Positions 7,863 to 62,158 of a DNA stretch of 64,000 nucleotides are shown one piece after another. How positions within the stretch are numbered: position 1 is the stretch's first letter; each line of letters starts with the position of its first letter. Below the pieces are notes generated by a model. It was not told the DNA's origin. It did no database searches and saw only the letters and a program-made list of their open reading frames with translations. The stretch comes from Alphaproteobacteria bacterium (GTDB lineage: Bacteria > Pseudomonadota > Alphaproteobacteria > Rs-D84 > JAERRO01): positions 2,488 through 66,487 of the forward strand of contig JAERRO010000006.1 of NCBI GenBank assembly GCA_016735395.1, given 5' to 3'. The position numbers and the translations under genes were made by a program.

Positions 7863-10800
7863 CTATTCTGATTTTTTAAATTCGATGTTAAGTGCGAGAG
7901 CTTCTAATTCTCTAGCGATTACATTTATAATTTCCGGGCGATGAGTTTCTATATCGTGTCTTTGATTGACAATAGAATCATATGCTTTCAGTCTTCCAGT
8001 TACATCGTCAGATTTTACGGTAAGCATTTCTCGCAAAGTGTATGCCGCTCCATGAGATGCCAAAGCCCAAACTTCCATTTCACCGAACCGTTGACCACCT
8101 TCTCTAACTCTACCTCTAAGCGGTTGTTGAGTAATAATAGAGTATGGACCTACAGATCTAGCGTGGATTTTTTTATCTACAAGATGGTTAAGTTTTAGCA
8201 TATATTTATATCCGACAGTTACAGGCCTATCAAATTTTTTACCAGTAATTCCATCGTATAGATCTACTTGTCCAGATCCCTCTAGTCCTGCGAATTCTAA
8301 CAGTTCTTTAACATCTTCAAAAGATGCACCGTTAAAAATAGGAGTTTTAATATAGAGTCCATCGCGAACATTATGGGCTAGTGCTATTACTTCTTTATCT
8401 GAAAAATTATCTATATCGGAGTGAGAGAAAGAAAACTTCATGATCCCTTTGACTAGGTCCCTTAACTTTTTCACATTTTCCTTTTTAGCGACAACTTTAT
8501 CAGCTAATTCGGCTAATTTTTGTCCTAAAGCTTGTGCTGCTCTACCGATATGAGTTTCCAGAAGTTGTCCAACATTCATTCTCGAAGGAATACCAAGAGG
8601 ATTTAGAACGATGTCTACAGAAGTCCCATCTTTCATATGAGGCATATCTTCTACAGGCAAAATTTTAGAAACGATACCTTTATTTCCGTGTCTTCCTGCC
8701 ATTTTATCACCAGGTTGAATTTTAGATTTATAGGCTATATAAATTCTAACTTCTTTTAATACTCCAGGAGGTAGGTCGGCATATTCTGTAGCTTGTAAAA
8801 AAGCCAGTTCATATTTTGCGACTAATTTTTCTAATTTTTGTTTATTTTTATTTAGTAGTGCTTTCCATTTCTCTTGAGATTTATCGTCTTTCAAAGATAT
8901 AGATTTAACAGCGGGCAGAGATAATTCGTCAATTATATTTTGAGTTATTTTATCCCCTTCCAACTTCTTCGCAGATTTGTTAGATGCGGAGGCTATCGTA
9001 TTACCGATCAAAATACCTTTTGCAGATTCTATAAAAGCTTCGTTATAAATTTTTTCTTCAGCTTTTAATGCATCTGTTAATTCTTTAGTATCTTGAGTTT
9101 CTATCATTAGAGTTCTTTGATCTTTTTCCAGACCTTGTCTAGTCAAAACAGAAACACCGATTACGGTTCCTTCGCTATCTGAACATCTAAAAGATGTATC
9201 TTTATAGTTAAAAGTTTTCTCTCCAAAAATGGTATTTAAGAGTTTTTCTTCTACAGAAACCGTAGCCTCTCCCTTGGGAGTAATTTTACCGACGACGATA
9301 TCACCTTTTTTAATAGTTGTCCCGACATTTACGATACCTGCTTCATCTAAATGCCTTAAAGCATATTCTCCCATATGCGGAACTTCTCTAGTAATAATTT
9401 CTTCACCAAGTTTAGTATCGTGAAGGACGACTACTTCTTCTTTTACATGTACAGAAGTATATACATCCTCTTTGATAAGTCTTTCGGACAGTAATATTCC
9501 ATCTTCAAAATTATATCCTCTCCAGGGCATAAAGGCCACTAGAACATTTTGTCCTAGAGCGAGTTTTCCGTTTTCGGTACAAGCTCCGTCTGCTAGAACA
9601 TCGCCTTTTTTCACAGATTCACCTACACTAACGAGTGGTCTCTGATGAATTATGGTATCTCCATTTGATCTATTAAAATTATTTAACTTATAAAAATCTG
9701 CTAGAACTTCGCCTTTGATTTTAGATCTAATCACGATGGCTTTGGCATCTACAGATTCTACGATACCGTCTGTCCGAGCGATAACGACACTTCTAGAATC
9801 TACAGCAATTTTCTTCTCCATACCTGTTCCGACTAGCGGAGCTTTAGGTTTAATTAGAGGGAGAGCTTGTCGTTGCATATTAGAAGCCATCAGTGCTCTC
9901 GATGCATCATTATTTTCTAGAAAAGGAACTAGATTTGCTTCGACAGAGGCAATTTGTCCTGAAGAGACATCTATATATTCGACTTGTTCTCTTTTTACCA
10001 GTTCTATTTCTTCTTTGTGTCTAACATAGCACCATTCATTTTCTATTTTTCCATTTTTATCTAAAACGGTAGTTGCAGGAGCGACTAGTCTACCGTCTTC
10101 TGCTATAGCGGTAAGATAGACGACTTCGTCAGTTCTCTTTCCATCGACTACTTTATAATAAGGAGATTCTAAAAATCCATAATGATTTATTCTAGAATGA
10201 GATGCGAGGGCTAAAATAAGTCCGATATTTGGTCCCTCTGGAGTAGTAATAGGGCAAATTCTACCGTAATGAGTATAGTGTACATCTCTTGCATCGATAG
10301 AAACATGTTCTCTAGACATACCGCCGGGGCCCATGGCAGAAAGCCTTCTACTTTCAGCGACTTCAGATAGAGGGTTTACTTGTTCCATAAATTTAGAGAG
10401 TGAAGACATTCCGAAGAATTCATTTAAAGCAGAAGAAATAGTTCTTCCGTTAATTAGACTCATAGGAGTCATATTTATAATGTCAGAGTTATTCATTCTT
10501 TCATTGATATTACTTCTCAATCTACGAAGTGCAGATTTATATTGATTTCCGACAAGTTCACCTACAGTTATAACTCTTCTGTTAGCCAAATGATCAATTT
10601 CGTCTGGGCCTAAAGAGAGATCTCTTGCTATCATTAAACTTTTAATAGTATTCAATATATCTTGCACACAGAGAGGTCTATTTTCTATATTTTCCGGATC
10701 TTTATTTTCGTTAAATCGTTCATTCATCTTGAATCTACCGATAGCAGAAAGATCATATCCGTTAGTATCGAAGAAGGATGCCTTCAACCGTCTATCCGCC

Positions 10801-11975
10801 GCATTTAGAGTCGGTCTTTCTCCAGCTCTCAAAGTACTATATACCTCGGCTAAACATCCGGCTCTATCTTTATCGCCGTCATATTGAATAGTTAGACACA
10901 TATGATTTCTTACACTATAGTGATCGATAGCTAAGATTTCTATTTTTTCTAGTCCTTTAGTAATAGATAAATTATCCAGAGTAATATCATACCCTGCTCT
11001 AATAATTCCTACACCCTCTCCAGTATTATTTGCGACGAACTTTCCTATAATAGAAGACTCTTCTATATAAGCCATATTATTTTTAAATTTCTGTTGTAAT
11101 TTAGAAAGGGAGATCGTTTCATTTTTATTTATGACAACTTCAGATTTGACATTAACTATTTCAAAAGGAGATTTTTTTAGACCTTTAATATTGTCTATAT
11201 CGAATGAGAAGAGTTTTTTATCTCTAGTCAGAGAAATTTTATCATAGAAGGTATTTAGTAGATCTTCATTTGAAAATGTATTTATATTGACATCTCCATC
11301 GATCCATTTCTTTTCGTCTTCTATAGTCGGCAGACATCGCAAGAAAGTTGAAAGCGGAATTTTTCTTTTTTTACTAATAGAAATATACAGATGATCTTTG
11401 GTATCGAAAATTATGTCTATCCAGTGTCCTATCTGCGGAATTATTCTAGCAGAATAGAGCATCTGTTTATCCGAAGAAGAACTAGGTTTATTTATGATAC
11501 TCACACCTTGAGATCTTTGAATTTGAGCGATAATAACTTTTTCATTACCGTTAATTACGAAGGTTCCATTTTCTGTCATAAGAGGAATAGCGTGGACGAA
11601 AAAAGATTGCTGTTTGATACCTCTAATAGTCCTCTCGTCGTTATCGCTATTATCGAATGTGACAAGTTTTAGATTAAGTTTAACAAAAGATTCGTATGTT
11701 GCGTGTTTAGCACGACATTGTTCTGGCGAGTATATAGGATCGACAAGTTCGTATGAAACAAATTCTAGAGTTGCATTAGGCTTATCTACATTAGGAGATT
11801 TGATAGGAAAATAAGAATTAAATGCTGCTTGCAGTCCTTGATTTTTTCTATTTTCAGGATCTATATCTGCCTGTAAAAACTTTCGATAAGAGTCCTCTTG
11901 AACTCCGATAAGATCGTCATTATTTGGCAGATCTTCTCTCTTCGCAAAATTGATTTCGATGGTATCGTGTATCAT
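7863..11975 (-). CDS. rpoB: DNA-directed RNA polymerase subunit beta
   Basis: 1370 aa with conserved RpoB blocks (GEMEVWAL, PGGLRFGEM-like regions). It is followed by rpoC after an 8-nt spacer. Confidence 0.95.
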   Translation of the reverse strand: MIHDTIEINFAKREDLPNNDDLIGVQEDSYRKFLQADIDPENRKNQGLQAAFNSYFPIKSPNVDKPNATLEFVSYELVDPIYSPEQCRAKHATYESFVKLNLKLVTFDNSDNDERTIRGIKQQSFFVHAIPLMTENGTFVINGNEKVIIAQIQRSQGVSIINKPSSSSDKQMLYSARIIPQIGHWIDIIFDTKDHLYISISKKRKIPLSTFLRCLPTIEDEKKWIDGDVNINTFSNEDLLNTFYDKISLTRDKKLFSFDIDNIKGLKKSPFEIVNVKSEVVINKNETISLSKLQQKFKNNMAYIEESSIIGKFVANNTGEGVGIIRAGYDITLDNLSITKGLEKIEILAIDHYSVRNHMCLTIQYDGDKDRAGCLAEVYSTLRAGERPTLNAADRRLKASFFDTNGYDLSAIGRFKMNERFNENKDPENIENRPLCVQDILNTIKSLMIARDLSLGPDEIDHLANRRVITVGELVGNQYKSALRRLRSNINERMNNSDIINMTPMSLINGRTISSALNEFFGMSSLSKFMEQVNPLSEVAESRRLSAMGPGGMSREHVSIDARDVHYTHYGRICPITTPEGPNIGLILALASHSRINHYGFLESPYYKVVDGKRTDEVVYLTAIAEDGRLVAPATTVLDKNGKIENEWCYVRHKEEIELVKREQVEYIDVSSGQIASVEANLVPFLENNDASRALMASNMQRQALPLIKPKAPLVGTGMEKKIAVDSRSVVIARTDGIVESVDAKAIVIRSKIKGEVLADFYKLNNFNRSNGDTIIHQRPLVSVGESVKKGDVLADGACTENGKLALGQNVLVAFMPWRGYNFEDGILLSERLIKEDVYTSVHVKEEVVVLHDTKLGEEIITREVPHMGEYALRHLDEAGIVNVGTTIKKGDIVVGKITPKGEATVSVEEKLLNTIFGEKTFNYKDTSFRCSDSEGTVIGVSVLTRQGLEKDQRTLMIETQDTKELTDALKAEEKIYNEAFIESAKGILIGNTIASASNKSAKKLEGDKITQNIIDELSLPAVKSISLKDDKSQEKWKALLNKNKQKLEKLVAKYELAFLQATEYADLPPGVLKEVRIYIAYKSKIQPGDKMAGRHGNKGIVSKILPVEDMPHMKDGTSVDIVLNPLGIPSRMNVGQLLETHIGRAAQALGQKLAELADKVVAKKENVKKLRDLVKGIMKFSFSHSDIDNFSDKEVIALAHNVRDGLYIKTPIFNGASFEDVKELLEFAGLEGSGQVDLYDGITGKKFDRPVTVGYKYMLKLNHLVDKKIHARSVGPYSIITQQPLRGRVREGGQRFGEMEVWALASHGAAYTLREMLTVKSDDVTGRLKAYDSIVNQRHDIETHRPEIINVIARELEALALNIEFKKSE

Positions 11976-16678: not shown

Positions 16679-18622
16679 ATGAAGAACAACAAAAAAGTTA
16701 CTATGATAAGATTGAGGGAAGATCAGTTAGAGAAAAAAGTAAATTTTATAAATAATTATATTGAGATTGATGAAAATGCTGCCGATGCTTCTGTCTTGGA
16801 TGCGAATGCCAACATCGTTTCAAAGAACTTGTCGACTTTAACTACAGAACTACATAAAGACATAAATATCCAGATAAACAGGTCCCTAATAAGTAGAACT
16901 TTGCAAGAAAAATTTGGCGATACCTATTCCAAAGAGTATATCCGTCAACTTGAGAATCACGAGATCTATACACACGATGAATCTTCGTTATCGCCGTATT
17001 GTGTGAGTATATCTATGTACCCGTTCCTATTAGGCGGTATGACAGCTCTAGGAGGGGAAGCGAAGGCTCCAAAGCATCTAGCATCTTTCACAGGATCCTT
17101 TGTTAATTTGATCTTTGCGGTCTCATCGCAGTTTGCAGGTGCGGTAGCATCTGTAGAATTTTTGATGTGTTTTGACTATTTTGCTAGAAAAGATTACGGG
17201 GACGATTATCTTAAAACTGACAAGAAAGTTATAGAAAATCAACTTCAGCATGTAGTCTATGCCCTAAACCAACCCGCCGCCGCTAGAGGCTATCAGTCGG
17301 TATTTTGGAATATATCTATATTTGATAAGTTCTACTTTAACTCTATATTTCAAGACTTTATATTTCCAGGAGATCAAAGCAGACCTAATTGGGGTTCACT
17401 ATCTAAATTGCAAGATTTCTTTATGAAATGGTTTAACGAAGAGCGGAGTAAATGTCTATTGACTTTTCCTGTTGTTACCGCCGCTATTTTGACAGAGGAT
17501 GACAAGCCTAAAGACAGTAAATTCGCAGATATGTGTTGTAAAGAAATGAGCGAAGGAAACTCGTTCTTCGTATATATGTCGGATACGGCGGACTCTTTAG
17601 CCTCTTGTTGCAGGCTTCGTAGTGAGATTGTAGATAATACATTTTCGTATTCTCTAGGAGCTGGAGGAGTATCTACAGGTAGTATAAATGTCATTACTGC
17701 AAATATAAACCGTCTTGTACAAAACTCTATATTGAGTCAGTTTAAAGAGCAGAACCCTAAATCTGAAAATCCGTTAACTTTAAAGGTCGCAGATAATTTT
17801 GAGTTATGGAAGAGCGAGGTACTAGACAAAACTGTAATCGACCATGACAAAATACAGGAAGATCTAAAAATACAGATAGAAAAGATACACAAATATCAGG
17901 TTGCGAGCCGTCATCTTTTTGAAAAGTATGAAAAGGGCGGTATGTTAACAGTCTATAATGCTGGCTATATATCATTTGAGAAACAGTTCTTGACTATAGG
18001 AGTGAACGGTTTTGTAGAGTCTGCAGAGGCTTTGGGCATTAGTCCGACGAACAATAAAGAGTATAAGAAATATTTAAACGGAATGTTGAAAGTTATATAT
18101 AATTCTAATAAGGAGGCAAAAAGTCTATACGGCTACCTCTTTAACACAGAATTCGTCCCTGCCGAGAATTTGGGTGTAAAAAATGCATCGTGGGATAAAA
18201 GAGACGGTTATTATAGTCCTAGAGATTGTTATAATTCTTATATGTATGTTGTAGAAAACGAATATACTGATCTGGTAGATAAGTTTGTTTTACACGGCAA
18301 AGAGATAGTAAAATACCTAGATGGTGGGAGTGCTTTACATCTAAATCTTGGAGAATACCCTACTCAAGAGTCGTATCGAAAACTTTTTAATATATCTGCA
18401 AAGACTGGGTGTAATTATTTTACTACGAATGTAAAGATTACTATCTGCGAACAGTGTAATAATATAGACAAGCGGACTCTAGACAGTTGTCCTAAATGCA
18501 GTTCTACTAACCTATCGTGGGCTACGAGGGTTATAGGATATTTAAAGAAGGTTTCATCATTCAGTTCTAAAAGGCAGTGTGAAGAGAGCGATCGCGATTA
18601 TGCTGGGTGCAACAACCTATAG
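16679..18622 (+). CDS. nrdD: Anaerobic (class III) ribonucleoside-triphosphate reductase
   Basis: 647 aa. The C-terminal Zn-ribbon CEQC...CPKC is followed by the glycyl-radical motif TRVIGYL. A palindrome ctatagat-ttt-atctatag overlaps the stop codon. Confidence 0.7.
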   Translation: MKNNKKVTMIRLREDQLEKKVNFINNYIEIDENAADASVLDANANIVSKNLSTLTTELHKDINIQINRSLISRTLQEKFGDTYSKEYIRQLENHEIYTHDESSLSPYCVSISMYPFLLGGMTALGGEAKAPKHLASFTGSFVNLIFAVSSQFAGAVASVEFLMCFDYFARKDYGDDYLKTDKKVIENQLQHVVYALNQPAAARGYQSVFWNISIFDKFYFNSIFQDFIFPGDQSRPNWGSLSKLQDFFMKWFNEERSKCLLTFPVVTAAILTEDDKPKDSKFADMCCKEMSEGNSFFVYMSDTADSLASCCRLRSEIVDNTFSYSLGAGGVSTGSINVITANINRLVQNSILSQFKEQNPKSENPLTLKVADNFELWKSEVLDKTVIDHDKIQEDLKIQIEKIHKYQVASRHLFEKYEKGGMLTVYNAGYISFEKQFLTIGVNGFVESAEALGISPTNNKEYKKYLNGMLKVIYNSNKEAKSLYGYLFNTEFVPAENLGVKNASWDKRDGYYSPRDCYNSYMYVVENEYTDLVDKFVLHGKEIVKYLDGGSALHLNLGEYPTQESYRKLFNISAKTGCNYFTTNVKITICEQCNNIDKRTLDSCPKCSSTNLSWATRVIGYLKKVSSFSSKRQCEESDRDYAGCNNL

Positions 18623-46577: not shown

Positions 46578-48218
46578 ATGAGAGAGACTATTTTACAAAG
46601 AACATTATTTTTATTAACGGCGGTATTTTTATCTAGTTGTTCTGTATCCCATAATAGTTCTTTAGAATCTTATGCCGTTAAAGGTCTGTACAAAAATGCG
46701 GAATACCCGGATATCTCTGTAAAAAGGGATAGCAAATTCGAGGGTATCACCGTAGACCTATATCTACCGAAAAGAGACACAAAATATAAAGATTACAGGG
46801 ACATAATAAGTCTATATTCGTTATATAACCCTAGTAAAATGAGAGTAAATTTTTATAACATAGAAGAATTAGAGGACAAAATAGAAGGCATTTTATCATT
46901 GGAAGTTTTACCTAACGAGAATGTTTTACCTAACGAGGCAGTTTTATCTAACGAAAATGTTATAATGGTTGGAGGCGACATTATATCTACAAAAAAAGCG
47001 AAGAGATTACAAGAATTAGGATATATTTTAGTACACCTAGATGGTTGGGAGACTCCGTCTGAATATAGTTATAGCAGTCAAGTTAGCGAGGTATCGAGGG
47101 TATTTAGTTTAATGTCTAGTATAAAAGATGCAGATAAATTGATAGTTATAGGTCCTAAAAAAGAAATTTCCCGCGAGATATCGACTATTGTTGATGAAAC
47201 AGATAAACAGTTAGTCAGCTATTTTAGTTATGAGAGTGGTGATAGTGAAAGTATAAAAGAGGTAGTGAAACAAAGCACCTATTATGAAGACAGGGTAGAG
47301 AATAAAAACAAATTATTGATTGCCTTAAATATGATAGACGAAGAACTTTTACCGGTAGAGGTGAAAGAAGAAGATACAGAAGAAATGGTTATAGATACAG
47401 AGTTATCTAAAGAGTTGTCAGTTCTAGAAGATACAGATACCGAAGTACCAAATTTTACACAAGAAGATCTATCGGAGAGTAAAAAAATAATAGACACCTA
47501 CAATGCTCTAGGTCAAGTCCCGTATGACGGAGTTTTGTTATTCGGAGACGAAACGGATATATTGATGTTAATCTCATATCTAAAATATTATGACAGTGGT
47601 AGTTTAGAGAAACCGTTAAAAATTATGGTAGGATCTTCGATCGACACAAACAAAATAGATCCTTCTTTACAGGGCATCTATATTTCGAAGCAGGACACAT
47701 TCTTATCTAATAGAGTCGGCTCTTTTTTCGGTGTAGATAAAACAGAAAACAATGTCTCATTTTACCATCTATTAGAATGTCTAAATAGTTTAAAAGGCGG
47801 AGAATTATTTTGTAATGTCGGCGGTTATAGCACGATATTTTCGTCTCATTATAACCTAGAGGATCTAACTACTTACAGAATACTTAATCGTCGATTGTCT
47901 CGTATAGACTCAAGTGAAGTCTCTTCTAGATTAAAATTGAGTAAAAAGCATATAGACTATGACTTATCATATTCGGAATTACATTTGATAGATATATTAC
48001 ACAGCACTAGTCTATCTAACGATTGGAAAACAGAGTTAGAAAAATTATTATCTGATATAGAAGAAATCGATTTAGGTTATGTAGAAATAGAGAGCGAAGA
48101 GATAGAACTAGAAGGCGGGCTATTAGATATATTTCAAATTGAAGATGTCGACAGCAATATAGAACTAGAAAGATTGGATGTCGTAGAGATAGAGGAACCT
48201 CTAAAAAAAGAAGAATAA
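46578..48218 (+). CDS. Hypothetical lipoprotein with internal tandem repeats and an acidic C-terminal tail
   Basis: 546 aa with lipobox LSSC. Three 18-nt tandem repeats at 46905..46958 encode VLPNEN/VLPNEA/VLSNEN. The central region resembles a periplasmic-binding/LpoA-like fold. The C-terminal ~60 aa are rich in Glu/Asp/Ile/Leu. Confidence 0.5.
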   Translation: MRETILQRTLFLLTAVFLSSCSVSHNSSLESYAVKGLYKNAEYPDISVKRDSKFEGITVDLYLPKRDTKYKDYRDIISLYSLYNPSKMRVNFYNIEELEDKIEGILSLEVLPNENVLPNEAVLSNENVIMVGGDIISTKKAKRLQELGYILVHLDGWETPSEYSYSSQVSEVSRVFSLMSSIKDADKLIVIGPKKEISREISTIVDETDKQLVSYFSYESGDSESIKEVVKQSTYYEDRVENKNKLLIALNMIDEELLPVEVKEEDTEEMVIDTELSKELSVLEDTDTEVPNFTQEDLSESKKIIDTYNALGQVPYDGVLLFGDETDILMLISYLKYYDSGSLEKPLKIMVGSSIDTNKIDPSLQGIYISKQDTFLSNRVGSFFGVDKTENNVSFYHLLECLNSLKGGELFCNVGGYSTIFSSHYNLEDLTTYRILNRRLSRIDSSEVSSRLKLSKKHIDYDLSYSELHLIDILHSTSLSNDWKTELEKLLSDIEEIDLGYVEIESEEIELEGGLLDIFQIEDVDSNIELERLDVVEIEEPLKKEE

Positions 48219-56758: not shown

Positions 56759-57781
56759 ATGGAAGGAATAATAGTAATAGATAAACCTGTAGGCATCTCT
56801 AGTCAGAAAGTAGGCGGTTGTATTAAGAGAGTATATAGAGAAGTTTTAGGTCAAAAAATTGCTGTTGGTCATATAGGAACATTAGATCCTTTTGCGAGCG
56901 GTTGTTTAGTGTTAGCGATAGGCGGTGCTAGTAAATTTATTCCTTTTATAGATGACGATAATAAAGTATATGATTGTGTTATAAAATTAGGCAGAACTAC
57001 TTCTACTTTAGATCCTACGGTAAAATCGGTAAAAGTCGGCAAGTCTTCTAGATTTCACATTAAAAGCGACCTTCTCTACCCTTCTCTCAAAATAGGAGAG
57101 CTATTACAGATACCCCCAAATTTTTCAGCTATTCATATCGACGGAGACAGAGCATATAAAAGAGCAAGGAGAGGCGAAGAATTTTCTATATCCCCTAGAA
57201 AAGTAGAATTGAGGGAAGTAAAAATATTATCTAGATTAAGATTTTATATAAATAGAGTCAGTTTGCGGATAAAAACTAGCAAAGGGTTCTATGTTAGATC
57301 ATTAGCCAGAGATTTTGCGAACGATTTAGGGACGGTCGGTTATCTTAAAAGTCTACGAAGATTAGAGAGCGGTAGATTTAACTTGAACCAGTCGAATAAG
57401 AAGCTAGATAAAATTATTGACTTTACAAAAAAACAGACTAAACTACGGAAACCCGAAAAGATTTTACAAGAGATTGTAAGATCTATTATCCCTATAGAAA
57501 ATATACTGGTCGACATACCGGTTATAGACATTGAGGCTAATAAAATAGGTTTATTACTGCAGGGCAAGAGATTGTTATGCGATAATGTTGAGATAAAGTT
57601 AAAAGAATTAACTCCACATAGTATCGATCGTAGTAGTATACCTGACTTAAAAAGGGACGGTAGTATATATCGAGTTCAAGTTGAATGTGGTATATTATTA
57701 TTAAACAAAACGGACAGCTATATACAGTTAATCCGTTATATAGAAATAAAAAAGGAAAAATTGTGTCGCAAAAAGAAATAG
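56759..57781 (+). CDS. truB: tRNA pseudouridine(55) synthase TruB
   Basis: GIIVIDKPVGISS...HIGTLDPFASGCLVLAIG contains the catalytic Asp motif (GTLDP). The C-terminus is a PUA-like domain. Confidence 0.85.
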   Translation: MEGIIVIDKPVGISSQKVGGCIKRVYREVLGQKIAVGHIGTLDPFASGCLVLAIGGASKFIPFIDDDNKVYDCVIKLGRTTSTLDPTVKSVKVGKSSRFHIKSDLLYPSLKIGELLQIPPNFSAIHIDGDRAYKRARRGEEFSISPRKVELREVKILSRLRFYINRVSLRIKTSKGFYVRSLARDFANDLGTVGYLKSLRRLESGRFNLNQSNKKLDKIIDFTKKQTKLRKPEKILQEIVRSIIPIENILVDIPVIDIEANKIGLLLQGKRLLCDNVEIKLKELTPHSIDRSSIPDLKRDGSIYRVQVECGILLLNKTDSYIQLIRYIEIKKEKLCRKKK

Positions 57782-57831
57782 ATAAAAACCTAGCACCGAA
57801 ATCTAGAAAACGGGTAGGAGATATAGATGTT

Positions 57832-58095
57832 ATGACTATGTCAAGAGTAGACATAGTAAAACAGTTTGGAATTAATTCTAATGATAACGGCGGTTCTAGT
57901 GAGTCTCAAATAGCTATTTTGACTAAAGAAATCAAAGAATTTAAGAAACATAGCGACCAGCACCCTAAAGATAATTCTTCAAATAGAGGATTATTGAGGA
58001 AAGTTGCATTGCGAAAAAAATTACTTACTTATCTAAAGAGGACGAATCTGGACTCTTATATGAGTATATTACAAAAATTAGGACTTCGTCAGTAA
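57832..58095 (+). CDS. rpsO: 30S ribosomal protein S15. The ORF-track ORF from 57685 is an upstream read-through overlapping truB.
   Basis: MTMSRVDIVKQFGINSNDNGGSSESQIAILTKEI...RGLLRKVALRKKLLTYLKR matches S15. Confidence 0.85.
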   Translation: MTMSRVDIVKQFGINSNDNGGSSESQIAILTKEIKEFKKHSDQHPKDNSSNRGLLRKVALRKKLLTYLKRTNLDSYMSILQKLGLRQ

Positions 58096-58238: not shown

Positions 58239-60752
58239 ATGGTAAAAACGAAACTAAACAACCCAATGATAGAGACAATAAAGATGGGTTCTAGTGAAAT
58301 TAAATTAGAGACAGGGCGAGTAGCGAAGTTATCGAAGGGTAGTGTATTAGCTACTTGGGGAGAAACAGTGGTATTAGCAACAGTAGTTTCTGCTAAAGAG
58401 GCAAAAGCAGGTCAAGACTTTTTCCCATTGAGTGTTCATTATCAAGAAAGATTTAGCTCAATAGGTCAATTCCCTAAAGGCTATATAAAAAGAGAAACTA
58501 AACCTACTGATGGAGAAGTATTAAAAAGCCGTTTAATAGACAGAGCATTGAGACCATTATTTCCGTCTACATATTTCAACGAAGTTCAAGTAATAATTAC
58601 TGTATATAGTTTTGATGGCGAACATGCTAGCGATATTCTAGCTGGTATTGCTGCTAGTGCTGCCGTTAGTATCTCTGGCATACCTTTTGCTGGACCTGTT
58701 GCTTTTAGTAGAGTTGCTCAACTTGAAGGTAAACTCGTATCGAATCCTTCACTATCAGATCTTAAAGAATCTGACCTAGATCTAGTAGTTGCTGGAACTA
58801 AAGACGGTGTCTTGATGGTAGAAAGTGAAGCGAAGAGTTTAACTGAAAAGCAAATGTTAGATGCTGTAAAAGAAGGTCATAAATCTTTATCACCTATCTT
58901 AAAAGCTATTACAGCTTTAAAGAAAGCAGTAGGTACTGTTGAAGAAAAAGCTCCTGAATTGAGTAAATCTTTTCTTGATCTAGAGAAAGCTAGTGAAAAG
59001 AAATACGGAAAATCAGTTATAGAAGCCTTTAAAATAGAAACTAAACCTGAAAGATCTGAAAAATTACAAGGTATCTTGAAATTGATGATGGAAGATAATG
59101 CTAGTAAAATTGAAAGTGAAGAGTGTAGTAAAAAAGATATAGACACTATATTCGATAAATTACAGTACAAACTATTACGAGCTAGCTTAATTAAAGGCGA
59201 TGCTAGAATAGATAAAAGAGATAGTAAAACTATCCGTCCTATAGAAATAGAAACAGGAGTTCTACCTAGTAGAGTTCACGGTTCTGCATTGTTTACCAGA
59301 GGCGAAACTCAATCGTTGATGTCTGTGGTTATAGGAACAGAACAAGATGCACAAAAAGCGGACAGTATATACGGTAACACACAAGAACGATTTATGTTGC
59401 AGTACAATTTTCCAGGATTTAGTGTAGGCGAAGTTAAAAGAGTTGGAGCTGTAGGTCGAAGAGAAATAGGTCATGCAAAGTTAGCTATGAGAGCTTTGAC
59501 TCCTGTTATGCCTAGTCTAGAAGAATTCGACTATACTATTAAAGTCATCTCTGACATTACTCAGTCTAACGGTTCATCTAGTATGGCGACTGTATGTGGC
59601 GGATGTGTAGCAATGATGCATGCTGGAATACCTTTAAAATCTCCTGTAGCTGGTATCGCGATGGGTCTAATTAAAGAAGGCGAAGACTATGTTATCTTGA
59701 GTGATATTTTAGGCGATGAAGATCACCTTGGAGATATGGACTTTAAAGTAGCAGGAACTAAAGAGGGAATTACCGCTTTACAAATGGACATAAAAATAAC
59801 TTCATTAACTTTTGAGATTATGGAGAAAGCCTTAGCACAAGCTCAAGAAGGTCGACTACATATATTGGAAAAAATGATAGAAGTTCAACCGTCTGTTGGT
59901 AAATTATCTGAATATGCCCCTAGAACTGAAACTATAAAAATCAACCCGTTAAAAATAAGAGATGTTATAGGAAAAGGCGGAGCGGTTATCCAAAAGATAA
60001 GTGCTGAAAGTCAAGCTACTATAAACATTGAAGATGACGGAACTATATCTATATCTGGAACAAATCCTGATTATATATCTAGTGCTAAAGAAATGATAAA
60101 AGCTATTACTGCTGAAGCAGAAGCTGGTAAAGTATACGAAGGTACTGTTGTCAGTATTAAAGATTTTGGTGCTTTCATCAGATTCTTTGAAGCTCAAGAA
60201 GGACTAGTCCATATATCTAATATCTTACCTAATGGCGAACATCTAGTAAATGTCGAAGATGCTTTAGAAGAAGGTCAAAAAGTTAAAGTTTACTTTAGCG
60301 GAGTAGATAATAAAGGCAGATCTAAATTGAGTATGAGCTATGTAGAGCAGTCAAGTGGAGAATTACTTCCAGGCTACGACAAAGTTGATGAAAGAAAAGA
60401 AAGAAGCGGAGGTCGCGACAACCGTGGCGGAAGCAGAGGCGGATACAACAGAGATAATCGTGGTGGAAGTCGTGATAATCGAGGTGGAAGCAGAGGCGGA
60501 TACAACAGAGACAATCGTGGTGGAAGTCGTGATAGTCGAGGTGGAAGCAGAGGCGGATACAATAGAGATGACCGAGGTGGAAGTCGTGGTAGAGACGACA
60601 GAAACGGAGGACGGAGAGACAATCGAAGTGATGACAGAAACGATCGTGGAAGTCAAAGCAGAGACAGTCGTCCTACTAGAAACTCAAAACTTTCTAGAAC
60701 ACAACCAGCTCAAGACGGATTTTTAAAGAAACTAAAAAAAGCTTTAAAATAA
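58239..60752 (+). CDS. pnp: Polyribonucleotide nucleotidyltransferase (PNPase) with a ~90-aa RGG/RGGY-repeat C-terminal extension
   Basis: Two RNase PH domains, a KH domain (IRDVIGKGGAVIQKI) and an S1 domain (VYEGTVVSIKDFGAFIRF) end at about residue 700. They are followed by DNRGGSRGGYNRDNRGGSRDN... repeats. Confidence 0.9.
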   Translation: MVKTKLNNPMIETIKMGSSEIKLETGRVAKLSKGSVLATWGETVVLATVVSAKEAKAGQDFFPLSVHYQERFSSIGQFPKGYIKRETKPTDGEVLKSRLIDRALRPLFPSTYFNEVQVIITVYSFDGEHASDILAGIAASAAVSISGIPFAGPVAFSRVAQLEGKLVSNPSLSDLKESDLDLVVAGTKDGVLMVESEAKSLTEKQMLDAVKEGHKSLSPILKAITALKKAVGTVEEKAPELSKSFLDLEKASEKKYGKSVIEAFKIETKPERSEKLQGILKLMMEDNASKIESEECSKKDIDTIFDKLQYKLLRASLIKGDARIDKRDSKTIRPIEIETGVLPSRVHGSALFTRGETQSLMSVVIGTEQDAQKADSIYGNTQERFMLQYNFPGFSVGEVKRVGAVGRREIGHAKLAMRALTPVMPSLEEFDYTIKVISDITQSNGSSSMATVCGGCVAMMHAGIPLKSPVAGIAMGLIKEGEDYVILSDILGDEDHLGDMDFKVAGTKEGITALQMDIKITSLTFEIMEKALAQAQEGRLHILEKMIEVQPSVGKLSEYAPRTETIKINPLKIRDVIGKGGAVIQKISAESQATINIEDDGTISISGTNPDYISSAKEMIKAITAEAEAGKVYEGTVVSIKDFGAFIRFFEAQEGLVHISNILPNGEHLVNVEDALEEGQKVKVYFSGVDNKGRSKLSMSYVEQSSGELLPGYDKVDERKERSGGRDNRGGSRGGYNRDNRGGSRDNRGGSRGGYNRDNRGGSRDSRGGSRGGYNRDDRGGSRGRDDRNGGRRDNRSDDRNDRGSQSRDSRPTRNSKLSRTQPAQDGFLKKLKKALK
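60423..60593 (+). repeat. Three tandem 57-bp in-frame repeats (units at 60423, 60480, 60537) inside the pnp 3' end
   Basis: The units cgtggcggaagcagaggcggatacaacagagataatcgtggtggaagtcgtgataat, cgaggtggaagcagaggcggatacaacagagacaatcgtggtggaagtcgtgatagt and cgaggtggaagcagaggcggatacaatagagatgaccgaggtggaagtcgtggtaga are about 90% identical. Each encodes RGGSRGGYNRD(N/D)RGGSR... Confidence 0.85.
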
Positions 60753-60764
60753 ATCCAAAATAAT

Positions 60765-60797
60765 AGAGGCGATTTTTTCGCCTCTATATTTTTTTAA
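60765..60797 (+). terminator. Rho-independent terminator after pnp
   Basis: The stem agaggcg(a)/(t)cgcctct has a T-rich loop and is followed by ATATTTTTTT. Confidence 0.65.
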
Positions 60798-60812: not shown

Positions 60813-61370
60813 ATGTTTAACACATTTTTCAGCAGACTAGAGGAAGAGTTTAAAAAAACTTTGATACATTTTGAAACTACAATACAGACTTTAAGAACTG
60901 GTAGAGCTCATATATCTGTACTGGACAATATTCTAGTCAACTCTTACGACAATATGGTTCCCCTAGATCAAGTAGGGTCTTTATCTGCACCGGATGCTCA
61001 AACGATAGCTATATCAGTGTGGGATAAAAGTATGATAGCTCCTATAATGAATGCTATCCGAGAGTCAGATTTAGGGTTAAATCCTACTAACGATTCTACT
61101 TTGATACGAATTCCGATGCCTCGTCCTACGGAAGAGAGGAGATTAGAATTGACAAAAACTTTAGACAAATATGCTGAAGAAAGTCGAATATCATTAAGAC
61201 ACACTAGACAAAATTTCATAAACGAGTTAAAGAGATTAGAGAAGGACAAAGAGATATCCGAAGACGACAGGAAAGTTAGCGAGAAAGAGATACAGAGTCT
61301 CTTGGAAAAACATAGTTCTCTAATAGAAGAAAAGAGTAAAGAGAAGAAAACGGACATAATGCAGGTATAA
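60813..61370 (+). CDS. frr: Ribosome recycling factor
   Basis: 185 aa. The RRF pattern is present (...LRTGRAHISVLDNILV...IRIPMPRPTEERR...). Confidence 0.9.
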   Translation: MFNTFFSRLEEEFKKTLIHFETTIQTLRTGRAHISVLDNILVNSYDNMVPLDQVGSLSAPDAQTIAISVWDKSMIAPIMNAIRESDLGLNPTNDSTLIRIPMPRPTEERRLELTKTLDKYAEESRISLRHTRQNFINELKRLEKDKEISEDDRKVSEKEIQSLLEKHSSLIEEKSKEKKTDIMQV

Positions 61371-61372
61371 GT

Positions 61373-62158
61373 ATGCCTAATAAAGAGAGAACAAATCATA
61401 TAGGTTTTATCTGTGATGGAAACGGCAGATGGGCTAAAAGCAAGAATAAAATCCGCATAGAAGGACATCTAGCGGGAATGTCTTCTAGCATATGGAAGAC
61501 ATTGATAAATTGGGGAAAGTCTAACAAATATAGTCATATGTCTTTCTACATATTTTCCACAGAGAATTGGAATCGTCCAAAATTAGAAGTATCGTACTTG
61601 ATGCTACTCTTTCAAGAATTGTCTAGCGGTTCGAAGTGGAGAAAATTGATGAGAGATAACGATACTAAAGTTAATTTTATAGGAGAAGAAGTCGGCTTAA
61701 AAAGATCGTTATTAAAAAGTATGCGAGAGATAGAAGAAATCACAAAAAACAATAAAGGCATAAACTTAACATTTTGTATGAATTACGGTGGTAAAGCAGA
61801 TATATTACAGGCGGTTAATAAATGTATAGCCATCGGCAAAACGGAGATAAACGAGAAAGAGTTTGAGAAACATTTAAGGGGGGATCTTCCTATGATAGAT
61901 ATTTTGGTCCGTACTGGAGGTTCTAGTAGAACTAGCAACTTTTTACCGTGGCATATTACCTATGCAGATATGTATTTTCCTTCTTGGTATTGGCCGGAAT
62001 TAGACAGAGAAAAATTAGATCTATTGACTATCGACATAGATAAAAGAAAACGAAGATTCGGCGGTATAGGTGAAGAAGAATATTCGGGGTGTGAGGATAA
62101 AGCGAGCGAGATGGTGGAAGAGAAAACTAAAGAGTTAAAGGCTCAAGGTATATTATAA
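61373..62158 (+). CDS. uppS: Undecaprenyl pyrophosphate synthase (cis-prenyltransferase)
   Basis: HIGFICDGNGRWA matches the HxxxIxDGNxRxA motif, and FSTENWNRP is also present. It lies immediately after frr. Confidence 0.85.
   Translation: MPNKERTNHIGFICDGNGRWAKSKNKIRIEGHLAGMSSSIWKTLINWGKSNKYSHMSFYIFSTENWNRPKLEVSYLMLLFQELSSGSKWRKLMRDNDTKVNFIGEEVGLKRSLLKSMREIEEITKNNKGINLTFCMNYGGKADILQAVNKCIAIGKTEINEKEFEKHLRGDLPMIDILVRTGGSSRTSNFLPWHITYADMYFPSWYWPELDREKLDLLTIDIDKRKRRFGGIGEEEYSGCEDKASEMVEEKTKELKAQGIL

What the first reader, a model, noticed from the sequence alone, without database searches (positions are those of the whole stretch)
60400..60752. PNPase carries an RGG/RGGY-repeat C-terminal tail encoded by three tandem 57-bp repeats
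After the S1 domain, PNPase continues for ~90 aa of (RGGSRGGYNRDNRGGSRDN)x3 plus an Arg/Asp/Asn-rich stretch. The DNA shows three ~90%-identical 57-bp tandem units and is locally GC-rich in an AT-rich genome. RGG boxes are RNA-binding and phase-separation motifs in eukaryotic RNA-binding proteins and in the C-terminal tails of some RNase E and DEAD-box proteins. On PNPase, such a tail may act as an intrinsic RNA-binding or degradosome-scaffolding tail. Tandem repeats also make this a potential length-variable locus.
Basis: seen in the sequence. Interest (0 to 1): 0.6.

Follow-up and report, generated by a model that had tools for sequence, protein, structure and literature searches.

The report
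PNPase with a disordered RGG tail
A normal-looking RNA-degrading enzyme (PNPase) from a very divergent, AT-rich alphaproteobacterium carries a real 138-residue floppy, positively charged arginine-glycine tail that ends in a short amphipathic helix. The tail is kept by selection and most likely serves as an extra RNA-grabbing arm, an unusual but not unique add-on.

Summary
The pnp ORF (58239-60752, 837 aa) runs without interruption from the S1 domain, which ends at aa 699, into a 138-aa tail and stops 11 nt before a strong terminator hairpin. Three 57-bp tandem units (60408-60588, 89% matches) encode (RGGSRGGYNRDNRGGSRDx)x3. This gives 9 RGG motifs and 3 evenly spaced Tyr.

The tail is not slippage junk:
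- The units differ mostly at synonymous sites (pN/pS 0.10).
- The tail uses only Arg (28%, no Lys) in a window whose long ORFs hold twice as much Lys as Arg.
- A second, independent assembly has the same three copies.
- AlphaFold gives coil for 717-826 (pLDDT about 33) and a terminal helix at 825-836 (QDGFLKKLKKAL, hydrophobic moment 0.71).

R/G/D-rich tails also occur on other alphaproteobacterial PNPases, notably Sphingomonadales. Those tails are near-neutral, lack RGG boxes and end in a different conserved tip. Most PNPases have no tail.

Best reading: a basic, disordered RNA-capture arm beside the KH/S1 entrance, working like the Rrp6 "lasso" of the exosome or the RhlE and RNase R tails. 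The helix may add membrane or partner anchoring. The only strain comparison possible does not support length variability. I rate it a new variant of a known kind, of moderate interest.

The parts
57826..58095 (+). rpsO (ribosomal protein S15), directly upstream of pnp as in the canonical truB-rpsO-pnp arrangement
   Evidence: Pfam Ribosomal_S15 E=7e-25. truB lies at 56759-57781, frr at 60813-61370 and uppS at 61373-62158.
58239..60752 (+). pnp, polynucleotide phosphorylase, 837 aa including the tail. NCBI's annotation of the same protein starts 9 codons later and gives 828 aa.
   Evidence: ORF. Full PNPase domain set. Identical to MBL0717836.1. Catalytic and phosphate-binding motifs fall in invariant alignment columns: S446-S448 and D489...D499 M500 D501 F502 K503. 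Best solved relatives are 4nbq and 4aid/4am3, E about 1e-205 to 1e-212, and those alignments end by query residue 711.
59925..60335 (+). KH (aa 563-621) and S1 (aa 627-699) RNA-binding domains. The tail starts where S1 ends.
   Evidence: Pfam KH_1 E=3.7e-12 and S1 E=5.2e-13. Confident AlphaFold strands run up to residue 698.
60336..60398 (+). Linker, aa 700-720 (SYVEQSSGELLPGYDKVDERK), net charge -2
   Evidence: pLDDT falls from about 83 to about 54 across this segment.
60399..60590 (+). RGG array, aa 721-784. It holds 9 RGG motifs, 5 di-RGG, 2 tri-RGG and 3 Tyr spaced 19 residues apart, with net charge +9. It is encoded by the 57-bp x 3.2 tandem repeat at 60408-60588.
   Evidence: TRF. Regex tests. 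Unit comparison gives pS 0.30-0.59 and pN 0.02-0.07. pLDDT is about 33 and the model is coil.
60591..60683 (+). R/D/N/S-rich non-repetitive disordered stretch, aa 785-815, net charge +3
60684..60749 (+). Terminal segment, aa 816-837 (SKLSRTQPAQDGFLKKLKKALK), net charge +6. A predicted amphipathic helix spans aa 825-836 (nt 60711-60746).
   Evidence: AlphaFold helix 825-836; the last two 10-residue blocks (821-830 and 831-837) average pLDDT 49 and 66. Hydrophobic moment 0.71 for GFLKKLKKALK, the highest 11-mer in the tail and within the top 2.6% of shuffles of its own residues. The segment is identical in the second assembly.
60763..60797 (+). Intrinsic terminator: a 10-bp G+C-rich hairpin plus a T run, starting 11 nt after the pnp stop codon
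   Evidence: Terminator scan. Folding gives -17.4 kcal/mol, z = -6.1 against shuffles.

Best explanation
This is a genuine, translated tail fused to the C-terminus of the S1 domain of an otherwise canonical, catalytically intact PNPase. It is intrinsically disordered, polycationic (net +16) and kept by selection.

PNPase is a trimer whose KH and S1 domains ring the RNA entrance. The enzyme would therefore carry three flexible arms of about 115 residues, together 27 RGG motifs and 9 Tyr, right at the mouth of the channel.

The most likely mechanism is non-sequence-specific RNA capture. The arms would bind RNA through arginine-phosphate and arginine/tyrosine-base contacts. They would hold long or structured substrates near the KH/S1 ring and so raise affinity and the efficiency of 3'-5' phosphorolysis. 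The basic Rrp6 'lasso' does this for the PNPase-like exosome core, and basic disordered tails do it for RhlE helicases and RNase R.

The last 12 residues form a Lys-faced amphipathic helix. With three copies per trimer it could tether the enzyme to the anionic inner membrane or to a partner.

Shown here: the coding frame, the repeat, purifying selection, the Arg-only composition, predicted disorder and the predicted helix. Inferred: RNA binding (about 0.6), stimulation of decay, RNA-dependent clustering (about 0.2-0.3) and membrane anchoring (about 0.3).
For: 1. Coding and expressed as part of pnp. The frame is uninterrupted, a terminator follows immediately, and a second assembly has the same frame and length.

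2. Selection on the peptide.
- Among the three units there are at least 10 synonymous and 3 non-synonymous changes (my count from the units printed). The binomial P is 7.7e-5 against the neutral site ratio.
- pN/pS is 0.10 in the pnp frame and 2.3-2.8 in three other frames.
- This holds in a genome so fast-evolving that its RpoB is only 46-47% identical, and its PNPase core 47-55% identical, to the nearest database proteins.

3. Arginine specifically. The tail 721-815 is 28% Arg and 0% Lys. The window's long ORFs hold 8.7% Lys and 4.3% Arg. GC3 stays low. A Rickettsiaceae PNPase builds its basic tail from Lys instead. The cell is therefore paying for Arg-Gly against its AT bias.

4. Disorder. 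pLDDT is below 50 and the model is coil for 717-826, with a confident core (mean pLDDT 79.6).

5. RGG-box criteria are met.

6. Experimental precedents.
- The roughly 100-aa basic disordered Rrp6 lasso lies by the S1/KH ring. It binds RNA at nM affinity and stimulates decay of long RNAs 10- to 25-fold, even when fused to the C-terminus of the S1/KH cap protein Csl4 (PMC5314766).
- RhlE disordered regions promote RNA binding, unwinding and phase separation (PMC11260450).
- The RNase R K-rich tail after its S1 domain raises RNA affinity (PMC3949413).

7. The terminal helix. Its hydrophobic moment is 0.71 and its polar face is all Lys. A positively charged amphipathic helix (MinD's) is sufficient to anchor RNase E to the membrane (PMC13657362). 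Short membrane-targeting sequences need multivalency, which a trimer supplies (PMC8155659).
Against: - There is no direct binding, activity or localisation data.
- Interspersed Asp lowers the net charge per residue of the array to +0.13.
- Most PNPases work without any tail, so the function is auxiliary.
- Low pLDDT is only a proxy for disorder.
- The helix is short (11-12 residues) and only moderately confident: the last two 10-residue blocks (821-830 and 831-837) average pLDDT 49 and 66.
- The RNase E membrane-targeting sequence is described for Beta- and Gammaproteobacteria, while Caulobacter uses cytoplasmic BR-bodies. Membrane-tethered decay is therefore not established for this class.
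- Only two near-identical genomes carry this tail, so there is no deep conservation to lean on.
- A tail-only homology search returned nothing.
Confidence: 0.6

Rival explanations
1. Scaffold or condensate organiser. The main job of the tail would be multivalent self- and hetero-association. RGG and Tyr act as stickers on a trimer, which nucleates RNA-protein bodies or recruits helicase, RNase E or Hfq. The tail would then substitute for the disordered scaffold of RNase E. This overlaps with the best explanation rather than excluding it.
For: - Arg and evenly spaced Tyr in a Gly/Ser/Asn-rich disordered chain on an oligomer.
- Bacterial helicase disordered regions of similar make-up phase-separate with RNA and contact RNase E (PMC11260450; bioRxiv 10.64898/2026.03.23.713837).
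- The tail combines an Arg-rich segment with an amphipathic helix. The RNase E C-terminal half also carries an Arg-rich RNA-binding domain (AR2; PMC9860253, listed) and an amphipathic membrane-targeting helix.
Against: - No partner-binding motif can be recognised.
- Charges are well mixed (kappa about 0.06), unlike the charge blocks I recall for the Caulobacter RNase E scaffold.
- There are only 3 aromatic residues per chain.
- Whether the genome has RNase E, RhlB or Hfq could not be checked. None is in the window among the genes examined, and no other ORF in the window has two or more RGG motifs.
Confidence: 0.2
2. Neutral low-complexity expansion. Replication slippage created a repeat at the 3' end of pnp, and it is merely tolerated in a small-population, host-associated bacterium.
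For: - The array is a tandem DNA repeat.
- PNPase tails differ widely in length and sequence between lineages and are absent from most.
- The array is a hot spot of base change between the two strains.
Against: - pN/pS is 0.10, with substantial synonymous divergence between units.
- The tail is exclusively Arg and never Lys, against the genome's bias.
- GC-rich codons persist in a 34% GC genome.
- Copy number is identical in the second strain, with three synonymous changes and one conservative change (N747S).
- The non-repetitive 53-aa remainder and the amphipathic end cannot come from slippage.
Confidence: 0.1
3. Contingency (phase- or length-variable) locus. Copy number of the in-frame 57-bp unit changes often and tunes PNPase properties.
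For: - The unit is in frame (19 codons).
- 4 of the 9 differences between the strains fall in the 181-bp array (P = 1.4e-4). Two of them make units more alike, as gene conversion would.
Against: - The two available assemblies have the same 3.2 copies.
- Units are only 89% identical, with pS 0.30-0.59, which is poor substrate for slippage.
- Exact-match and peptide-pattern scans of JGI metagenomes found no further alleles.
Confidence: 0.05
4. Not part of PNPase. The repeats would be non-coding, an assembly artefact, or would belong to the antisense ORF 60374-60622 (82 aa, P/L/R/S-rich).
For: The antisense frame that shares wobble positions with pnp also gives pN/pS 0.10. Open frames exist on both strands across the array.
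Against: - The sense frame continues 720 codons of PNPase and stops 11 nt before a strong terminator.
- Two independent assemblies agree.
- The antisense ORF starts with TTG and lies entirely inside the stop-poor GC-rich array. The same antisense 'PPRLSLL' ORF appears opposite an unrelated RGG-coding gene in L131, so it is a by-product of RGG codons.
- RNA folding of the array is no better than shuffles (z = +0.28).
Confidence: 0.02

Closest known systems
R/G/D-rich C-terminal tails of other alphaproteobacterial PNPases (Sphingomonadales such as Sandarakinorhabdus and Allosphingosinicella, and metagenomic proteins P0053, P0151, P0184)
   Same: These are also low-complexity Arg/Gly/Asp-rich extensions of 40-130 aa directly after S1, built from short repeats. 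They often end with a short motif that contains an aromatic residue.
   Different: - Sphingomonad tails are near-neutral polyampholytes (net -4 to +4) made of DRGPRR(D/E)GG units. They have few RGG motifs and no Tyr, and they end in a conserved acidic tip, EFAPAFLTRDDD or LPNFLTGGDD.
- The window's tail is net +16, has 9 RGG and 3 Tyr with Asn/Ser spacers, and has a Lys-rich amphipathic end.
- The tails cannot be aligned.
- By PNPase core distance, most of the window's nearest relatives have short tails (4-48 aa for the ten nearest). An independent origin is therefore likely.
- I found no paper on any of these tails.
Rrp6 C-terminal 'lasso' of the eukaryotic nuclear RNA exosome (PMC5314766)
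   Same: It is a highly basic, disordered stretch of about 100 aa placed next to the S1/KH ring of a PNPase-like barrel. It binds RNA non-specifically and stimulates decay of long RNAs, and it still works when fused to the C-terminus of an S1/KH cap subunit.
   Different: It is Lys-rich rather than RGG. It sits on a separate subunit (an RNase D-family enzyme), and the exosome core is catalytically inert. This is a functional analogy only, with no homology.
Basic disordered extensions of bacterial RNA enzymes: RhlE1/RhlE2 C-terminal regions, the type II RhlB N-terminal region, and the RNase R K-rich domain after its S1 domain
   Same: These are disordered basic appendages on RNA-metabolism enzymes. 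They increase RNA binding and activity, and for the helicases they drive RNA-dependent phase separation and contact with RNase E.
   Different: The host enzymes and the sequences differ. None of these appendages has been reported on PNPase, and none is known to end in an amphipathic helix.
Eukaryotic RGG/RG boxes (FUS, hnRNP, nucleolin, fibrillarin, FMRP type)
   Same: The tail meets the di-RGG and tri-RGG spacing definitions (definitions quoted from memory of Thandapani et al. 2013). It is also Gly-rich, disordered and interspersed with Tyr.
   Different: The host is bacterial, and arginine methylation is not expected. The spacers are Asp/Asn-rich, which reflects an AT-rich genome. The similarity is compositional and convergent.
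C-terminal or internal amphipathic membrane-targeting sequences (MinD, FtsA, RNase E)
   Same: The window's end is a short amphipathic helix with a basic polar face at the end of a flexible chain on an oligomer. From memory, the E. coli MinD end ...KGFLKRLFGG resembles ...DGFLKKLKKALK.
   Different: Membrane binding has not been tested. No such sequence is known on PNPase. In E. coli, PNPase reaches the membrane only indirectly, through RNase E.

Membership tests
Polynucleotide phosphorylase (PNPase) | Domain order RNase PH - alpha-helical PNPase domain - RNase PH - KH - S1 | tested here: met
   Pfam hits all lie above their gathering scores. The AlphaFold core is confident. phmmer against solved PNPases gives E = 1e-205 to 1e-212.
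Polynucleotide phosphorylase (PNPase) | Conserved catalytic and phosphate-binding residues in the second RNase PH domain | tested here: met
   S446-S448 and D489...D495, G498, D499, M500, D501, F502, K503 are invariant columns in a 64-sequence alignment that includes the window protein. The assignment of these motifs to catalysis is from memory of E. coli PNPase.
Polynucleotide phosphorylase (PNPase) | Usual gene context rpsO-pnp | tested here: met
   The order is truB, rpsO (S15), pnp, frr, uppS.
RGG/RG-box disordered RNA-binding region | Clustered RGG repeats: di-RGG or tri-RGG with 0-4 residue spacers | tested here: met
   9 RGG, 5 di-RGG and 2 tri-RGG matches. The definition is quoted from memory.
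RGG/RG-box disordered RNA-binding region | Lies in an intrinsically disordered region | tested here: met
   pLDDT is below 50 and DSSP gives coil for 717-826. This is a proxy only.
RGG/RG-box disordered RNA-binding region | Binds RNA | not testable with these tools
   Needs EMSA or anisotropy with the tail peptide and with full-length against truncated enzyme.
Amphipathic membrane-targeting sequence (MinD / RNase E type) | Short helix with a hydrophobic face and a positively charged polar face free of acidic residues | tested here: met
   The helix spans 825-836. The hydrophobic moment is 0.71. F, L, L, A and L fall within an 80-200 degree arc, and all polar positions are Lys. The charge criterion is from PMC13657362.
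Amphipathic membrane-targeting sequence (MinD / RNase E type) | Actually binds the membrane, usually with avidity from oligomerisation | not testable with these tools
   The trimer is inferred from PNPase family knowledge; several solved PNPase entries deposit three chains. Needs liposome co-sedimentation and GFP-fusion imaging.
RNase E-type degradosome scaffold / BR-body-forming disordered region | Segregated blocks of opposite charge and recognisable partner-binding micro-domains | tested here: not met
   Kappa is about 0.06, so charges are finely mixed. No partner motif is recognisable. The charge-block criterion is from memory of the Caulobacter work, and partner binding itself cannot be tested here.
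Variable-number tandem repeat / contingency locus | Copy number differs between closely related genomes, and units are near-identical | tested here: not met
   The copy number is the same in the 99.83%-identical second assembly. Units are 89% identical with pS 0.30-0.59. Only two genomes were available.
Sphingomonadales-type PNPase tail | DRGPRR(D/E)GG units, near-zero net charge, and a conserved terminal FAPAFL.. or LPxFLTGGDD tip | tested here: not met
   The window's tail is net +16 with different repeat units. Only an 'FL' dipeptide is shared at the end. The PNPase core does not group with that clade by distance.

The most novel reading that the evidence does not exclude
In this lineage PNPase may be a self-contained 'mini-degradosome'. 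The tail would carry, on the exonuclease itself, two features that the C-terminal half of RNase E also carries: an Arg-rich RNA-binding segment and an amphipathic membrane anchor. The trimer would then tether itself to the membrane and/or form RNA-dependent bodies without an RNase E scaffold. This could compensate for a reduced or missing scaffold in a fast-evolving, host-associated genome.
Probability: 0.12. Interest if true: 0.7.

Novelty: new variant of a known kind. Interest (0 to 1): 0.42.

Why it matters
PNPase is one of the best-studied RNA-decay enzymes, and textbook PNPase ends at its S1 domain. A canonical RGG box, selectively maintained against a strong AT and Lys bias, suggests that bacteria can evolve this RNA-binding module much as eukaryotes did.

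If the inference holds, it offers a natural, compact test case for two questions:
- How does a basic disordered arm beside the KH/S1 portal change substrate capture by an exosome-like barrel?
- Can an exonuclease set its own cellular location without RNase E?

It also draws attention to a wider pattern for which I found no literature. Whole clades of Alphaproteobacteria, including cultured Sphingomonadales that could be used for experiments, carry long R/G/D-rich PNPase tails with a conserved terminal tip.

If the tail proves to be no more than an affinity booster, the finding is a modest addition to the catalogue of bacterial disordered regions.

Tried and rejected
- Tail-only protein search (131 aa) against 5.8 billion proteins. 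Nothing passed E <= 0.001, probably because of low-complexity correction, so homology of the tail cannot be traced this way.
- S1-plus-tail search of 1.84 billion cluster representatives. The top of the list was dominated by multi-S1 proteins. It did show that 'S1 followed by an RG-rich tail' recurs in PNPase fragments and in small or ribosomal-S1-like proteins. None resembles the window's tail closely. P0151 ends ...KKRRGFFG and P0184 ends ...ALFRGG.
- Exact-match scan of JGI metagenomes for the repeat core found 0 hits.
- A peptide-pattern scan found only unrelated S1 domains, plus one unrelated AT-rich gene with RGG[YF]NRDN repeats.
- The species-representative genome collection does not contain this organism. 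The best PNPase there is 51% identical.
- I tried to place the lineage with RpoB. The best non-self hit is 46-47% identical, and the named hits span Micavibrio, Rickettsiales and Rhodospirillaceae. The lineage remains unplaced.
- A search of solved structures with the last 27 residues found no hit.
- I rejected foreign origin for the GC-rich patch, because GC3 and codon choice match the host gene.
- I rejected an RNA-structure role for the array (z = +0.28).
- I rejected the antisense ORF (see the rival explanations).
- Four literature searches found no paper describing a PNPase RGG or RG-rich tail. The library holds open-access papers only.
- I could not determine whether the genome encodes RNase E, RhlB/RhlE, Hfq or other RGG-tailed proteins. 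Only the 64-kb window and one 9.7-kb locus of the sister assembly were readable.


Full report
OBSERVATION

The finding is real and lies where stated.
- A single ORF (58239-60752, + strand, 837 aa) contains the full PNPase domain set: RNase_PH x2, RNase_PH_C, PNPase, KH 563-621 and S1 627-699. No Pfam domain follows residue 699.
- Tandem Repeats Finder reports one array at 60408-60588 with period 57, 3.2 copies, 89% matches and no indels.
- It is the only strong tandem repeat in the 64-kb window. Its 26-nt core occurs three times against none in 100 shuffles.
- The array encodes RGGSRGGYNRDNRGGSRDN / RGGSRGGYNRDNRGGSRDS / RGGSRGGYNRDDRGGSRG.
- GC reaches 0.535 at 60400-60599 against 0.343 for the window. 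The excess lies in codon positions 1 and 2, while GC3 stays low (0.30 against 0.21 in the pnp core). The GC rise is therefore a consequence of Arg and Gly codons, not of foreign DNA.
- The gene sits in the usual truB-rpsO-pnp-frr-uppS context. It ends 11 nt before a strong intrinsic terminator at 60763-60787 followed by a T run (z = -6.1).

ANATOMY OF THE TAIL (aa 700-837, 138 aa, net charge +16; the core is -9)
- A 21-aa linker, aa 700-720.
- The RGG array, aa 721-784. It holds nine RGG motifs, which form five di-RGG and two tri-RGG matches, and three Tyr spaced exactly 19 residues apart.
- A non-repetitive R/D/N/S-rich stretch, aa 785-815.
- A Lys-rich end, aa 816-837, ...QDGFLKKLKKALK.

AlphaFold2 with a 64-sequence alignment gives a confident core. 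It gives pLDDT below 50 and pure coil for 717-826, and a helix at 825-836 for which the last two 10-residue blocks (821-830 and 831-837) average pLDDT 49 and 66. The terminal 11-mer has a hydrophobic moment of 0.71, the highest in the tail and within the top 2.6% of shuffles of its own residues. F, L, L, A and L lie on one face and only Lys on the other.

IS THE TAIL TRANSLATED AND MAINTAINED?

Yes, on four independent lines.

1. A second MAG (GCA_016735385.1, locus L052) is 99.83% identical over 5400 nt. It has the same frame, the same three copies and one conservative substitution, N747S.

2. The three units differ mainly at synonymous sites.
   - pS is 0.30-0.59 and pN is 0.02-0.07, so pN/pS is 0.10 overall.
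   - I count at least 10 synonymous and 3 non-synonymous changes from the units printed. The binomial P is 7.7e-5.
   - Three of the other frames give pN/pS above 2. The antisense frame that shares wobble positions mirrors the sense value by construction.
   - The same antisense 'PPRLSLL' ORF appears opposite an unrelated RGG gene in L131, so it is a by-product.

3. The disordered part is 28% Arg and 0% Lys, although the window's long ORFs hold twice as much Lys as Arg. A Rickettsiaceae PNPase makes its 70-aa basic tail from Lys. The organism therefore maintains GC-rich Arg and Gly codons against its own bias.

4. This conservation stands out in a very fast-evolving lineage. RpoB is only 46-47% identical, and the PNPase core 47-55% identical, to the nearest of 5.8 billion proteins.

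The repeat is therefore old and constrained, not a recent slippage product. RNA folding of the array is no better than shuffled sequence (z = +0.28).

IS THE ARRAY LENGTH-VARIABLE?

The only comparison available says no, because the copy number is identical. The array is nevertheless a hot spot. Four of the nine differences between the assemblies fall in its 181 bp (P = 1.4e-4). Two of them make units more alike, as intra-array gene conversion would. Scans of JGI metagenomes found no further alleles.

HOW UNUSUAL IS A PNPase TAIL?
- In a sample picked only by a conserved S1 word, 58 of 60 complete metagenomic PNPases have 20 aa or fewer after S1.
- Pelagibacterales PNPases mostly have 5-8 aa after S1.
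- Solved PNPase structures align no further than query residue 720.
- R/G/D-rich tails are nevertheless common among alphaproteobacterial PNPases. 73 of the 120 best hits have more than 40 aa after S1, and a Sphingomonadales clade forms the bulk. That clade includes cultured Sandarakinorhabdus as well as Allosphingosinicella MAGs.
- Those tails are near-neutral (net -4 to +4) and made of DRGPRR(D/E)GG units with few RGG motifs and no Tyr. They end in a conserved acidic tip, EFAPAFLTRDDD or LPNFLTGGDD.
- The window's tail is the longest seen here and the only strongly cationic one. The nearest analogue in style is P0053 (net +8, six RGG, GGY repeats), which comes from an unrelated gene context.
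- By core distance, most of the window's nearest PNPase relatives have short tails (4-48 aa for the ten nearest). This tail probably arose independently.
- A search with S1 plus the tail showed that 'S1 followed by an RG-rich tail' recurs in several protein families.

MECHANISM (INFERRED)

PNPase is a trimer whose KH and S1 domains crown the channel entrance. This is family knowledge; several solved PNPase entries deposit three chains. A basic disordered chain leaving S1 places three RNA-binding arms at that entrance.

The closest experimental precedent is the Rrp6 'lasso'. It is a basic disordered region of about 100 aa next to the S1/KH ring of the PNPase-like exosome core. It binds RNA with nM affinity and stimulates decay of long RNAs 10- to 25-fold. 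It does so even when fused to the C-terminus of the S1/KH cap protein Csl4 (PMC5314766).

Bacterial precedents are these:
- The RhlE C-terminal disordered regions give RNA binding, stimulation of unwinding, phase separation and RNase E contact (PMC11260450).
- The type II RhlB N-terminal disordered region behaves similarly (bioRxiv 10.64898/2026.03.23.713837).
- The RNase R K-rich domain after its S1 domain gives RNA affinity and ribosome recruitment (PMC3949413).

I therefore rate 'auxiliary RNA-capture arm' as the most likely function, at about 0.6.

The terminal helix fits the criteria for a membrane-targeting amphipathic helix. A positively charged amphipathic helix (MinD's) suffices to anchor RNase E, whereas the two helices tested that carry acidic residues on the polar face failed (PMC13657362). 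Short helices of this kind need multivalency (PMC8155659). I give membrane or partner anchoring about 0.3.

Scaffolding or condensate formation remains possible. However, the charges are finely mixed (kappa about 0.06), unlike the RNase E charge blocks, and no partner motif is visible.

COMPARISON AND NOVELTY

The enzyme is a bona fide PNPase. The tail meets the sequence definition of an RGG box and the physicochemical definition of a membrane-targeting helix. It does not meet the criteria for a Sphingomonad-type tail, for an RNase E-like charge-block scaffold, or for a contingency repeat (see the membership table).

Four searches of the open-access library found no description of RGG or RG-rich tails on PNPase. 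I rate it a new variant of a known kind, namely a basic disordered appendage on an RNA enzyme.

LIMITS
- No function was measured.
- Disorder is inferred from pLDDT.
- Only two near-identical genomes carry the tail.
- The lineage could not be placed.
- The rest of the genome, including RNase E, helicases and Hfq, could not be inspected.

Noticed in passing
L052 1-1597 (GCA_016735385.1, JAERRM010000001.1): In the sister assembly, pnp is cut at about codon 121 and joined to 1.6 kb that matches nothing in the window and has no long ORFs. The other pnp fragment is on another contig and overlaps by about 41 codons (P0121/P0123). The last ~44 nt before the junction (GTGGCTCGTTGGTCTAGGGGCATGATTCTCGCTTTGGGTGCGAG) look, from memory, like the 5' half of a eukaryotic cytosolic tRNA-Pro, but ARAGORN and Rfam find nothing. 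This is probably a chimeric join with host DNA, which hints that the bacterium is host-associated.
   Followed up: partly
L131 316-1401 (JGI contig Ga0265301_10060851, GC 0.33): An unrelated 361-aa protein has an N-terminal zinc-ribbon-like CxxC...CxxC motif and (NRGGGYNRDNRGGGFNRD)x4. It lies upstream of two ORFs that look to me like rimM and trmD, which I did not test. It uses the same RGG[YF]NRDN peptide word as the window's tail. The match suggests that AT-rich bacteria converge on Asn/Asp/Tyr spacers between obligatory RGG motifs. It has no significant Pfam domain.
   Followed up: partly
Proteins P0002-P0067 (Sphingomonadales PNPases), residues after S1: The DRGPRRDGG linkers vary in length (86-132 aa) but end in a strongly conserved tip, ...PEFAPAFLTRDDD or ...LPNFLTGGDD. 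The layout of a disordered linker with an acidic-hydrophobic tip recalls the SSB C-terminal tip (from memory). It suggests a docking or auto-regulatory motif. I found no literature on it.
   Followed up: partly
window 46578-48218 (+): A 546-aa ORF with no Pfam family at E <= 0.01. It contains the window's only other tandem repeat (18 bp x 3.2 at 46905-46961).
   Followed up: no
window 16679-18622 (+); L053 1-1577: The window encodes an anaerobic ribonucleotide reductase (NrdD), which suggests an anaerobic or microaerobic lifestyle. The contig of the most similar-style tailed PNPase (P0053) also carries NrdD nearby.
   Followed up: no
window 7863-11975 (-) rpoB; 58239-60335 pnp core: The lineage is extremely divergent. 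RpoB is only 46-47% identical, and the PNPase core 47-55% identical, to the best non-self hits among 5.8 billion proteins. The organism is absent from the species-representative genome collection. It is a long-branch alphaproteobacterium that I could not place.
   Followed up: partly
L028 3001-5260 (Rickettsiaceae MAG CAYGSI010000012.1): This PNPase has a 70-aa Lys/Glu-rich tail (K 29%, R 3%). It is the AT-rich-genome way of making a basic tail, and it contrasts with the Arg-only tail of the window.
   Followed up: no
window 60478, 60548-60549, 60563 compared with L052: The differences between the strains inside the array look like exchanges between repeat units and between the two RGGSR half-units (AGCAGA to AGTCGA). 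Intra-array gene conversion therefore seems active while the peptide is preserved.
   Followed up: partly
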